DNA of 41,775 nt, taken from the UHGV virus genome UHGV-0209075. One strand, written 5' to 3'. This DNA is from a virus. Below are positions 1 to 41,775 of this stretch, piece by piece; position 1 is the stretch's first letter, and each line of letters opens with the position of its first letter. The notes beneath the pieces are model-generated. The model saw nothing but the letters and a program-made list of their open reading frames with translations, was not told the DNA's origin and ran no database searches. Position numbers and translations under genes: made by a program.

Positions 1-58
1 CTGAGGGTGCAGAAATCCCTCCGGTTAAGGATTAAATTTTTAACAGAGCTAAATTTAA

Positions 59-415
59 TTATTCAGTTCTGGATTTTGTCGCCCTGCGTATCCGCGCTTT
101 CGCGTTACGCTCAATCTGAATTAGCTTTTCTATATTTTTTCGCCTTTCCCGCTCCTCCTGGCGCAAGTGCCTTACATCATCTGCCAGTCTGGTTTCTCTT
201 TTCGCCACAGAGAGCATCCAGTCAAATGGCTCCACAACTGCACCGCAGATTTTACAGCGGACCTGACGCTCTTTTTCGTCAACCCGGACAGAGGCGTGAT
301 GACAATATGGTCTTTCCGATGGCTCATAAAGAAAATTAACCTGATTACGTGGGTCATCCTCTTTTACCGGAAATAAAACAATATTACTTAACTCATCTTC
401 TGGATTTATTTCCAC
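59..415 (-). CDS. nin-region small protein with Cys/His cluster (PYCHH...CKIC) and basic coiled-coil C-terminus; function unknown
   Basis: ORF-track ORF 59..496; start placed at GTG 415 preceded by AAGGAG with 6-nt spacer, 1 nt after the TGA of the upstream gene (translational coupling). Confidence 0.5.
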   Translation of the reverse strand: MEINPEDELSNIVLFPVKEDDPRNQVNFLYEPSERPYCHHASVRVDEKERQVRCKICGAVVEPFDWMLSVAKRETRLADDVRHLRQEERERRKNIEKLIQIERNAKARIRRATKSRTE

Positions 416-40070: not shown

Positions 40071-40226
40071 TTACTCCTCAGGTTCGTAGACTGTGAAGAC
40101 AGCGACCTCCGTCTGGCCGGTTCGAATTCGTACCTCGCAGAGGTCTTTCCTCGTTACCAGTGCCGTCACTATGACGGTTAAACAGATGACGATCAGGGCG
40201 ATTAACATCGCCTTTTGCTGCTTCAT
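40071..40226 (-). CDS. hok: Hok/Gef-family type I toxin
   Basis: MKQQKAMLIALIVICLTVIVTALVTRKDLCEVRIRTGQTEVAVFTVYEPEE is near-identical to E. coli HokD/RelF as I recall it; AAGGAG SD. Confidence 0.8.
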   Translation of the reverse strand: MKQQKAMLIALIVICLTVIVTALVTRKDLCEVRIRTGQTEVAVFTVYEPEE

Positions 40227-40283
40227 AGCCTGCTTCTCCTTGCCTTTCGGCACGTAAGAGGCTAACCTAGATTTGCCGTTCAT
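40071..40283 (-). CDS. mok: mok-like in-frame N-terminally extended reading frame over hok
   Basis: ATG 40283 opens a 70-codon frame ending at the hok stop, as I recall for chromosomal mok/hok loci. Confidence 0.5.
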   Translation of the reverse strand: MNGKSRLASYVPKGKEKQAMKQQKAMLIALIVICLTVIVTALVTRKDLCEVRIRTGQTEVAVFTVYEPEE

Positions 40284-40876: not shown

Positions 40877-41392
40877 TCACCGTAAAACATCCTCCACGCT
40901 TATCAGTCCGTTTCGCTTCAGGTAGTCCATCGCCTTCTCCGGTAATTTGCAGTCCGGCTTGGCTTTTTTCAGTTGGCTGACCAGTCGTTTAACCCACATT
41001 GTTAATTCGCTAACCTGATTGCCGGAAGCTGGTGGGTTGTCGGCTTTACCCAGAATGACAGCACTGCAGGCCTCTTTGAGTACCCAATCAACAGCATCTT
41101 TCCATGCTCCTGTTTCGACTGGTGGATTCTCACGCTTTACCTGTTCATAAAAGCGCACGGCTTTAACCAGTCCTTCTGATGTCAGTGGCACAGGCGGGGC
41201 AGTGAATAACGCCTGAATTTCATAGCTCGGCCTGTCGTTGCAATCCTCTTTTGTCGGTACATATTTCCAGTCACCAACCCACGGCTCCCCCTGTGAGTCC
41301 GTAATGCCTTTTTTCACGTAGCGATATCGCCATGCAACTGGTTTTGCCTGCCCTGCCGTTTCATGCCCTTCCTGATAATTAATCTCACTCAT
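40877..41392 (-). CDS. hypothetical nin-region protein (171 aa)
   Basis: Start ATG overlaps stop of upstream small ORF (translational coupling). Confidence 0.5.
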   Translation of the reverse strand: MSEINYQEGHETAGQAKPVAWRYRYVKKGITDSQGEPWVGDWKYVPTKEDCNDRPSYEIQALFTAPPVPLTSEGLVKAVRFYEQVKRENPPVETGAWKDAVDWVLKEACSAVILGKADNPPASGNQVSELTMWVKRLVSQLKKAKPDCKLPEKAMDYLKRNGLISVEDVLR

Positions 41393-41565
41393 TCATCGCC
41401 CCACTCATCACAATATGCTTCGACCGGAGTTTTTCCTGCTTCATAATCATCACGCCATGCTTCAGCATCAGCGGCACTTCCACCGCGTAACTCTGCATAA
41501 TCCATTAACAGTTCATGCCATTCTTCAAAACTGGCGTTATATTTAGTTGAACCAAAATCAGCCAT
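41389..41565 (-). CDS. hypothetical small acidic protein (58 aa), not in ORF track
   Basis: Hand-translated MADFGSTKYNASFEEWHELLMDYAELRGGSAADAEAWRDDYEAGKTPVEAYCDEWGDE; start overlaps upstream stop and stop overlaps downstream start. Confidence 0.3.
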   Translation of the reverse strand: MADFGSTKYNASFEEWHELLMDYAELRGGSAADAEAWRDDYEAGKTPVEAYCDEWGDE

Positions 41566-41740
41566 TTTGCTCTTCCTCTTCGTCTTTTATTTCGTGATAT
41601 GAGTAATTGCAGTAGTTAAAGAAAATTTCTTTTGCTTCGTCCTTTATTTCATCTGGTGTCGCATCATCATCCACTTCGAATTCATCCTCGAAATCTCCAC
41701 CGGCTATTTCCGTTTCAATAATTATTTTAAACTTTCGCAT
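41558..41740 (-). CDS. small highly acidic protein (60 aa), AT-rich
   Basis: ATG 41740; about 35% Asp/Glu; upstream AGGAGG separated from the ATG by a GC hairpin CCGCCC-gaaa-GGGCGG. Confidence 0.45.
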   Translation of the reverse strand: MRKFKIIIETEIAGGDFEDEFEVDDDATPDEIKDEAKEIFFNYCNYSYHEIKDEEEEQNG

Positions 41741-41775
41741 TTAACTACCGCCCTTTCGGGCGGCCTCCTGATGTT

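What the first reader, a model, noticed from the sequence alone, without database searches (positions are those of the whole stretch)
41389..41775. Coupled small acidic proteins at the window edge, one with a hairpin inserted between SD and start codon
Seen: a 60-aa protein with about 35% Asp/Glu (41558-41740) whose ATG is separated from an upstream AGGAGG by a GC hairpin with GAAA loop, and an overlapping hand-found 58-aa acidic ORF (41389-41565) coupled on to the 171-aa gene. Inference: small highly acidic phage proteins are often DNA mimics or anti-defence factors; the hairpin could bring the SD to functional spacing or gate translation.
Basis: partly seen in the sequence, partly recalled or inferred. 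Interest (0 to 1): 0.4.

Follow-up and report, generated by a model that had tools for sequence, protein, structure and literature searches.

The report
Portable split ribosome-binding site in coliphages
Two real but uncharacterised small acidic phage genes sit behind a strong ribosome-binding site that a stable RNA hairpin separates from the start codon; the same cassette precedes several unrelated genes in E. coli lambdoid phages and most likely works like the rare "split" ribosome-binding sites of phage T4.

Summary
All features are on the minus strand.

- **Genes.** The 60-aa gene (41740..41558; 35% Asp/Glu, net charge -15) is a Pfam DUF7167 protein. The 58-aa gene (41565..41389) overlaps it by 8 nt and overlaps the 171-aa gene by 4 nt. 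Both small genes are under purifying selection (dN/dS 0.15 and 0.04).
- **Leader.** AGGAGG (41769-41764) is followed directly by a 6-7 bp GC hairpin with a GAAA loop (-12 to -15 kcal/mol), then 6 nt, then ATG. That puts the SD 23 nt from the start, or 6-7 nt if the hairpin is folded.
- **Upstream context.** The "missing" context lies at the other end of the window, because the window is circularly permuted.
- **Main new result.** The SD+hairpin cassette is not specific to this gene. In related phages the identical 23-mer precedes at least four unrelated gene families. In each case the start codon lies 5-8 nt after the hairpin and the spacer contains no other SD.
- **Variation.** SD and ATG are nearly invariant, and the spacer varies in sequence but not in length. 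One diverged lineage keeps all 7 pairs despite 5 stem changes. The formal covariation test is not significant.
- **Best reading.** This is a portable T4 gene 38/25-type split RBS sitting on a mosaic joint.
- **Proteins.** The DNA-mimic or anti-defence idea has no support beyond charge.

The parts
41558..41740 (-). 60-aa acidic protein, DUF7167 family. It is the first cistron of a three-gene translationally coupled block.
   Evidence: Pfam PF23768 E 9e-13 and phrog_1997 E 6e-29. dN/dS about 0.15 against diverged alleles. AlphaFold model pLDDT 86.5: strand-strand-helix core with a disordered acidic tail.
41389..41565 (-). 58-aa acidic protein of an unnamed enterobacterial prophage family, overlapping the DUF7167 stop by 8 nt (ATGGCTGA).
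   Evidence: phrog_519 C-terminal part, E 8.5e-23. Homologues in E. coli, Enterobacter, Salmonella and Shigella. dN/dS 0.04. Three-helix model, pLDDT 74. The same -8 overlap is the commonest arrangement in the related loci scored.
40877..41392 (-). 171-aa protein (phrog_660), third cistron, with an ATGA overlap onto the 58-aa gene.
   Evidence: Its C-terminal module recurs in other cassette-driven proteins.
41764..41769 (-). Shine-Dalgarno AGGAGG, 23 nt upstream of the ATG.
   Evidence: Read directly from the sequence. Nucleotide diversity is 0.017, against 0.18 at third codon positions, in 71 distinct relatives.
41747..41764 (-). RNA hairpin: 7-bp stem (G.U plus six G-C pairs) with a GAAA tetraloop, lying entirely between the SD and the start codon.
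   Evidence: Folding energy -12.4 (16-mer) to -15.5 kcal/mol. 94.9% of cells paired over 53 distinct sequences. The diverged L108 version keeps all 7 pairs.
41741..41746 (-). 6-nt spacer AGTTAA between the hairpin and the ATG; it contains an in-frame TAA.
   Evidence: Length is invariant in 106 contexts while the sequence varies (AGTGAA, AGTTAA, AATGAA, AAGACA, AACATA and others).
1..58 (-). First 58 nt of the 93-nt intergenic leader, continuous with position 41775 across the circular junction. It contains AATCCTTAACCGGAGG at 33-18.
   Evidence: The joined ends align end to end at about 98% with 206 related loci.
59..415 (-). Upstream gene: a 118-aa protein with a weak, sub-threshold zinc-ribbon match (GTG start, stop TAA at 61-59).
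   Evidence: Translation. A relative gives a sub-threshold Zn_Ribbon_TF hit. Annotated as a hypothetical protein in L001.

Best explanation
The SD-hairpin-AUG arrangement is a split (non-contiguous) ribosome-binding site of the kind known from phage T4 genes 38 and 25.

Proposed mechanism: the 30S subunit pairs with the exposed AGGAGG. The very stable GNRA-capped hairpin stays folded and loops out 16-18 nt. The AUG, 23 nt away in sequence, is thereby presented at an effective distance of about 6-7 nt.

Ribosomes that start here also feed the two downstream cistrons through the 8-nt and 4-nt stop/start overlaps.

The element is not private to DUF7167. It is a self-contained leader cassette on a mosaic joint of the early-right (nin-like) region of E. 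coli lambdoid phages, and it drives at least four unrelated accessory genes.

Shown here: the anatomy, hairpin stability, conservation pattern, portability, and that both small ORFs are real genes.
Inferred: that the hairpin is folded during initiation and that it helps rather than merely does not hinder.

The proteins are early, non-structural accessory proteins of unknown function. My best guess is that they bind host or phage proteins through their acidic surfaces; DNA mimicry is only one possibility.
For: - Geometry: AGGAGG + 16-18-nt hairpin + 6 nt + ATG. This matches the T4 precedents, where folding shortens the SD-AUG distance from 22 to 5 nt and from 27 to 11 nt (PMC3014915; PMC7297116).
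It precedes DUF7167 (spacer 6 nt), the DUF4014 72-aa membrane protein (5 nt), xTELTKE proteins (7-8 nt) and MQEIKEN proteins (8 nt). All spacers are A-rich and lack GGAG.
- Left partners: it joins either a roughly 45-nt leader or the stop codon of a 70-aa gene 5 nt before the SD.
- Diversity: SD 0.017 and ATG 0.009, against spacer 0.186 and third codon positions 0.183. The C-rich 5' arm (0.185) varies much more than the G-rich 3' arm (0.08). That asymmetry is expected if C-to-U (U.G wobble) is tolerated in RNA read from this strand.
- Length: no indels between SD and ATG in 53 distinct sequences.
- Diverged lineage: L108 has ACUGCCA-GAAA-UGGUGGU. It carries five stem substitutions including a C-G to A-U double change, yet all 7 pairs are kept. 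Simulated chance is 0.5-2.5%. Synonymous divergence of the gene in that lineage is about 1.
- Loop: the variant GGCA is still GNRA.
- Not a terminator and not in Rfam.
Against: - The formal covariation test on 53 distinct leaders is not significant. 58 of 500 shuffles reach the observed percentage paired and 107 of 500 reach the covariation score.
- About 20% of DUF7167 contexts carry stem mismatches with a folding energy weaker than -9 kcal/mol. These may be recombinants between co-adapted arms or simply decaying prophage copies.
- The sequences are close relatives that exchange segments by recombination, so conservation may partly reflect recent spread rather than selection.
- The 3' arm (GGCGGU, or GGUGGU in L108) is an imperfect SD at ordinary spacing, so a different initiation route is conceivable.
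- More distant DUF7167 genes use ordinary SDs, so the hairpin is not needed by the protein family as such.
- There are no expression data.
Confidence: 0.55

Rival explanations
1. The hairpin exists mainly for a reason other than translation. It could be a conserved boundary or linker sequence at which homologous recombination shuffles nin-region genes. It could also be an RNA-stability element, acting as a 3' exonuclease barrier for the upstream message. On this view translation merely tolerates it.
For: - The cassette has at least 2 left partners and at least 4 right partners, and occurs twice about 1-1.7 kb apart in some genomes.
- Variants with one arm of each type look like crossovers inside the hairpin.
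- The leader upstream of the hairpin is identical in L108 even though the gene has diverged to dS about 1.
- The boundary-sequence model of phage mosaicism is established in the literature (PMC3233612).
Against: - A linker does not need to be a hairpin, to keep a GNRA loop, or to sit at a fixed 5-8 nt from every downstream start.
- None of the four downstream gene families has its own SD after the hairpin, so initiation must still work across it.
- This rival is compatible with the split-RBS reading rather than exclusive of it.
Confidence: 0.25
2. The hairpin is a translational repressor. The functional SD is the imperfect GGCGG in the 3' arm, 6-9 nt from the start, and the stem sequesters it. 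The exposed AGGAGG serves as a ribosome standby site.
For: - GGCGGU (GGUGGU in L108) lies at canonical spacing from the start in all four gene families.
- Rare rearranged loci that lost AGGAGG and the 5' arm still keep the gene intact (L053/L069/L217, L160/L161).
Against: - Melting a hairpin of -12 to -15 kcal/mol to expose a mismatched SD is energetically far worse than using the free, perfect AGGAGG.
- The AGGAGG core is almost invariant, more so than the 3' arm.
- The rearranged loci are few. Gene callers read them as N-terminal fusions (P0004, P0139), and they may be decaying copies.
Confidence: 0.1
3. The hairpin is a protein-binding RNA site such as a boxB-like antitermination (nut) element, or an intrinsic terminator of the upstream gene.
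For: It is a GC stem with a GNRA loop, which resembles the GNRA-like fold of lambda boxB (from general knowledge). It lies in the early-right operon, where terminators tR2-tR4 lie in lambda (from general knowledge).
Against: - No T-run follows on either strand, and the terminator scan finds nothing there.
- There is no conserved boxA-like sequence upstream; that stretch is the variable part of the leader.
- The position is fixed relative to start codons, not to promoters.
- No Rfam match.
Confidence: 0.05

Closest known systems
Split (non-contiguous) ribosome-binding sites of phage T4 genes 38 and 25 (Gold 1988; Nivinskas et al. 1999; Malys & Nivinskas 2009, as reviewed in PMC3014915 and PMC7297116)
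   Same: The SD is more than 20 nt from the AUG. A stable hairpin occupies the interval and reduces the effective spacing to the functional range (22 to 5 nt and 27 to 11 nt in T4; 23 to 6-7 nt here). The site is an intercistronic junction of a phage operon.
   Different: The host phages are temperate lambdoid phages, not T-even phages. The hairpin sequence is unrelated. The cassette is shared by at least four unrelated genes and coincides with a mosaic joint. There is no experimental evidence here.
Short conserved boundary (linker) sequences at module junctions of lambdoid phages (model summarised in PMC3233612)
   Same: It is a short conserved intergenic sequence flanked by non-homologous genes on both sides, and it is repeated within some genomes.
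   Different: Here the linker has a defined RNA structure and contains the only SD of the downstream gene, so it is also a functional expression signal.
Small acidic DNA-mimic proteins of phages (e.g. T7 Ocr and Gp5.9, phi29 p56; recalled from general knowledge)
   Same: Small size, strong negative charge and early expression in a phage.
   Different: No sequence or fold similarity to any solved structure. The model is a strand-strand-helix core with a disordered acidic tail rather than a rigid array of carboxylates. No target is known.
Pfam DUF7167 / PHROG 1997
   Same: The 60-aa protein is a full-length member. Structural relatives occur in Escherichia phage phAPEC8 and Lactococcus phage 949.
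   Different: The family has no known function. Most members use ordinary RBSs.

Membership tests
Split (T4 gene 38/25-type) ribosome-binding site | Strong SD lying too far (more than about 13 nt) from the start codon in the primary sequence | tested here: met
   AGGAGG ends 23 nt before the ATG.
Split (T4 gene 38/25-type) ribosome-binding site | Stable stem-loop lying wholly between SD and AUG, sequestering neither, which restores a spacing of about 5-11 nt | tested here: met
   6-7 bp GC stem with GAAA loop, -12.4 to -15.5 kcal/mol. 6-7 nt are left between the stem base and the AUG.
Split (T4 gene 38/25-type) ribosome-binding site | No alternative SD at ordinary spacing | tested here: inconclusive
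   Spacers of all four gene families lack GGAG, but the 3' arm GGCGGU is a one-mismatch SD-like sequence buried in the stem.
Split (T4 gene 38/25-type) ribosome-binding site | Structure conserved in relatives, with pair-preserving changes | tested here: inconclusive
   94.9% of cells paired and 2 pairs with double changes, but not above the shuffles. L108 keeps 7 of 7 pairs after 5 changes, with simulated chance 0.5-2.5%. The arm asymmetry in diversity fits an RNA structure.
Split (T4 gene 38/25-type) ribosome-binding site | Destabilising the hairpin lowers translation and compensatory changes restore it | not testable with these tools
   Needs reporter fusions or toeprinting.
Intrinsic (Rho-independent) terminator | GC hairpin followed directly by a run of U | tested here: not met
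   The hairpin is followed by AGUUAAAUG. The scan finds no terminator in the intergenic region.
nut site (boxA/boxB) | boxA consensus a few nt upstream of a short hairpin, placed just downstream of an early promoter | tested here: not met
   No conserved boxA-like motif. The site lies after the replication and Ea22-like genes. No Rfam hit.
Pfam DUF7167 | Score above the Pfam gathering threshold over the full domain | tested here: met
   48.6 bits against a cut-off of 24.4, residues 2-53 on profile positions 1-60.
DNA-mimic proteins | Fold or surface resembling a known mimic, or demonstrated binding to a DNA-binding protein | tested here: not met
   No Foldseek match to PDB at E <= 0.001 for either model. 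No PDB sequence hit below E = 0.96 for the 60-aa protein and none for the 58-aa protein. Binding cannot be tested here. Only the high negative charge is met.
Known anti-phage defence components (PADLOC) | Match to a PADLOC model | tested here: not met
   No hits for any of the four proteins. No anti-defence library was available.
Mosaic boundary / linker sequence | Conserved intergenic sequence with non-homologous genes on either side in different genomes | tested here: met
   At least 2 left contexts and at least 4 right gene families.

The most novel reading that the evidence does not exclude
The SD-hairpin unit is a mobile, self-insulated expression cassette. The hairpin would give context-independent, correctly spaced initiation to whatever gene lands behind it. 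The same conserved roughly 25-80 nt would serve as the homology patch through which lambdoid phages swap accessory genes in the nin region. It would thus be a natural 'plug-and-play' RBS linked to gene shuffling. In addition, the acidic DUF7167/58-aa pair it drives here could be host-protein inhibitors (anti-defence).
Probability: 0.25. Interest if true: 0.55.

Novelty: new member of a known kind. Interest (0 to 1): 0.38.

Why it matters
Split ribosome-binding sites are textbook curiosities known from a handful of genes, mainly T4 genes 38 and 25. An unannotated example shared by several unrelated genes would extend the phenomenon to temperate phages. Its host region matches in 2,213 of 5,426 complete E. 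coli genomes, including Stx-converting phages.

It would also link an expression signal to a mosaic recombination joint. In practice it matters for gene calling: databases hold 87-93-aa mis-calls that read through the hairpin. It also matters for predicting expression of prophage accessory genes.

The proteins themselves remain of unknown function. Nothing here raises or lowers the prior that small acidic early proteins are host-factor inhibitors.

Tried and rejected
- NCBIfam, PADLOC and PDB sequence searches for the 60-, 58-, 171- and 87-aa proteins gave nothing useful.
- Foldseek of both AlphaFold models against PDB gave no significant match. BFVD returned only uncharacterised phage proteins.
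- Rfam at permissive E-values found nothing at the hairpin; only sok downstream matched.
- The promoter/terminator scan found nothing in the intergenic region.
- A literature search for DUF7167 returned no papers.
- A proposed second hairpin in the leader (GAGGG...CCCUC) has no compensatory changes and several breaks. RNAalifold prefers a different pairing there, so I dropped it.
- The leader's upstream GGAGG is explained instead as the ordinary SD of a 70-aa gene present in other genomes.
- Distant DUF7167 genes (Intestinirhabdus, a Bacilli MAG, the P0140/P0141/P0143 clades) all have ordinary RBSs, so the hairpin is not ancestral to the family.
- A generic scan of all fetched loci found no second type of SD-hairpin-ATG cassette.
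- E. coli K-12 Rac lacks the cassette, so K-12 ribosome-profiling data cannot settle the question.
- The genome-contig scan with the wide alignment failed for lack of a conserved stretch. The narrower alignment returned only 4 loci.

Full report
**1. What is in the sequence**

The features lie on the minus strand.
- The 60-aa ORF runs 41740..41558.
- The 58-aa ORF runs 41565..41389 and overlaps the 60-aa stop as ATGGCTGA.
- The 171-aa ORF runs 41392..40877 and overlaps the 58-aa gene as ATGA.
- The 60-aa protein has 21 of 60 Asp/Glu (35.0%), net charge -15. The 58-aa protein has 27.6% Asp/Glu, net charge -12.
- Upstream of the ATG at 41740 the RNA reads AGGAGG-CCGCCC-GAAA-GGGCGG-UAGUUAA-AUG. 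The six G-C pairs plus a G.U pair give -12.4 to -15.5 kcal/mol.
- An in-frame TAA directly precedes the ATG.
- A permissive scan finds this arrangement once in the window, against 0.37 expected by chance. The arrangement needs comparative support to count as real.

**2. Where the window comes from, and the "edge" problem**

The region is 98% identical to the early-right (nin-like) region of E. coli lambdoid prophages. There it lies between the replication genes and hokD, DUF968, rusA and Q. The 976-nt region has matches in 2,213 of 5,426 complete E. coli genomes.

The window is circularly permuted.
- Minus-strand positions 60..1 read ...AATCCTTAACCGGAGGGATTTCTGCACCCTCAG and continue without a break into 41775.. 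= AACATCAGGAGG....
- The 800-nt joined sequence aligns end to end at about 98% with 206 related loci.
- The upstream context is therefore inside the window. It consists of a 118-aa ORF with a weak, sub-threshold zinc-ribbon match (415..59) followed by a 93-nt intergenic leader.

**3. The two small ORFs are genes**

*The 60-aa protein.*
- It is a full-length Pfam DUF7167 / phrog_1997 member.
- Close relatives are confined to E. coli and Shigella prophages.
- Relatives at 35-50% identity and 50-60 aa exist widely.
- Structural relatives occur in lytic phages such as phAPEC8 and Lactococcus phage 949.
- The AlphaFold model (pLDDT 86.5) is a two-strand hairpin packed on a helix, with a disordered acidic tail.

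*The 58-aa protein.*
- It belongs to an unnamed family in E. coli, Enterobacter, Salmonella and Shigella prophages.
- It is predicted to be a small three-helix domain (pLDDT 74).

*Both genes.*
- dN/dS is about 0.15 for DUF7167 and 0.04 for the 58-aa gene.
- Neither protein matches any solved structure or any defence model.
- In the main E. coli clade DUF7167 is nearly always followed by the 58-aa gene with the same 8-nt overlap. The P0037 and P0140 clades have other genes there. The two are linked by descent, not by necessity.
- The GAGGA that serves as the SD for the 58-aa gene is encoded by the acidic tail codons of DUF7167.

**4. The hairpin is part of a portable cassette**

Across 213 DUF7167 loci the SD, hairpin and ATG are kept behind several different upstream contexts.

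The 23-mer precedes four unrelated gene families:

| Gene family | Spacer after the hairpin |
|---|---|
| DUF7167 | 6 nt |
| DUF4014 72-aa membrane protein | 5 nt |
| xTELTKE proteins, 135-277 aa | 7-8 nt |
| MQEIKEN proteins, 158-196 aa | 8 nt |

- The spacers (AGTGAA, AAGAA, AATGAAAA, AACAAATA and others) contain no GGAG.
- On the left, the cassette joins either the roughly 45-nt leader seen in this window or the stop codon of a 70-aa gene 5 nt before the SD. The first half of the leader is the ordinary RBS of that 70-aa gene in other genomes.
- About 20 sequenced coliphages carry the cassette, unannotated, in intergenic DNA. They include mEp460, ArgO145, Stx2a-converting phages and Rac-like phages. 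Several carry it twice.
- More distant DUF7167 genes use ordinary SDs, so the cassette belongs to the locus rather than to the protein family.

**5. Is the hairpin under selection as RNA?**

The evidence is mixed.

*In favour:*
- Nucleotide diversity in 71 distinct sequences:

| Element | Diversity |
|---|---|
| SD | 0.017 |
| ATG | 0.009 |
| Leader | 0.042 |
| 3' arm | 0.08 |
| Loop | 0.12 |
| 5' arm | 0.185 |
| Spacer | 0.186 |
| Third codon positions | 0.183 |

- The C-rich 5' arm mostly changes C to U, which keeps a wobble pair. The G-rich 3' arm is conserved. A DNA palindrome would not show this asymmetry.
- There are no indels between SD and ATG.
- Loop variants GAAA and GGCA are both GNRA.
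- The lineage whose gene has diverged to dS about 1 carries ACUGCCA-GAAA-UGGUGGU. Its five stem changes leave all seven pairs intact, with a simulated chance of 0.5-2.5%.

*Against:*
- The tool's covariation test is not significant.
- About a fifth of contexts carry one or two mismatches. Many of these look like crossovers between differently co-adapted arms.

**6. Mechanism**

The most economical reading is a split RBS, as in T4 genes 38 and 25. In those genes a hairpin between the SD and the AUG shortens 22 nt to 5 and 27 nt to 11, and it enhances initiation (PMC3014915; PMC7297116). Here 23 nt become 6-7.

The cassette is the only de novo ribosome entry point for the coupled block of DUF7167, the 58-aa gene and the 171-aa gene.

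Its position on a joint with several left and right partners fits the boundary-sequence model of lambdoid mosaicism (PMC3233612). The two roles are compatible.

I consider the following less likely:
- a repressing hairpin that hides a cryptic GGCGG SD;
- a boxB-like site;
- a terminator.

The reasons are given under the rival explanations.

**7. Verdict**

- The spacing idea is supported by comparative data but untested experimentally.
- The DNA-mimic idea is unsupported.
- The proteins are already annotated (DUF7167 and a hypothetical protein).
- The cassette is unannotated. It is a new member of a known, rare kind of translation signal, with the added feature that unrelated genes share it.
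- Interest is moderate.

Noticed in passing
window 1-60 and 41741-41775 (both ends): The window is circularly permuted. Its two ends join seamlessly inside the intergenic leader, and the joined sequence matches 206 related loci end to end. The 41,775-bp window therefore looks like a complete circular lambdoid phage genome, with most genes, including the region studied here, on the minus strand.
   Followed up: yes
window 40071-40283 (-); L001 7381-7555: A hok-family toxin ORF (annotated hokD in the relative L001) lies downstream of the block. In L001 it has a strong Rfam sok antitoxin RNA match (111.7 bits).
   Followed up: partly
window 40877-41392 (-); L229, L257: The C-terminal module of the 171-aa protein (GLVKAVRFYEQVKRENPPVETGAWKDAVDWVLKEAC) recurs at the C-terminus of otherwise different cassette-driven proteins (135 aa and 158 aa). 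Mosaicism here reaches below the gene level.
   Followed up: partly
L053/L069/L217; L160/L161; proteins P0001, P0003, P0004, P0139: Rare rearranged copies have lost AGGAGG and the 5' arm, with the junction inside the hairpin. Databases also hold 87-146-aa calls that read through the leader and hairpin into DUF7167. In P0003 (139 member sequences) the position of the usual start methionine reads Arg, and in L179 the start reads ATA. These are probably decaying prophage copies or gene-calling artefacts.
   Followed up: partly
L052, L067, L228, L244, L276, L284, L295; Stx2a-converting phages: Some genomes carry two copies of the cassette 1-1.7 kb apart as direct repeats. The repeats bracket DUF4014, a roughly 90-aa gene and the 118-aa zinc-ribbon-like gene, which could mediate deletion or duplication of that segment.
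   Followed up: partly
protein P0144: A 3,033-aa protein in the representative library has four stretches similar to residues 19-46 of DUF7167 (the FEVDDDAT..EEI..EA motif). This may be a repeated acidic motif or low-complexity similarity.
   Followed up: no
hit H19: An 'Actinobacillus phage vB_Apl-pPE4' record carries this E. coli region at 96% identity. That is unexpected for that host and may be a host-assignment or contamination issue.
   Followed up: no
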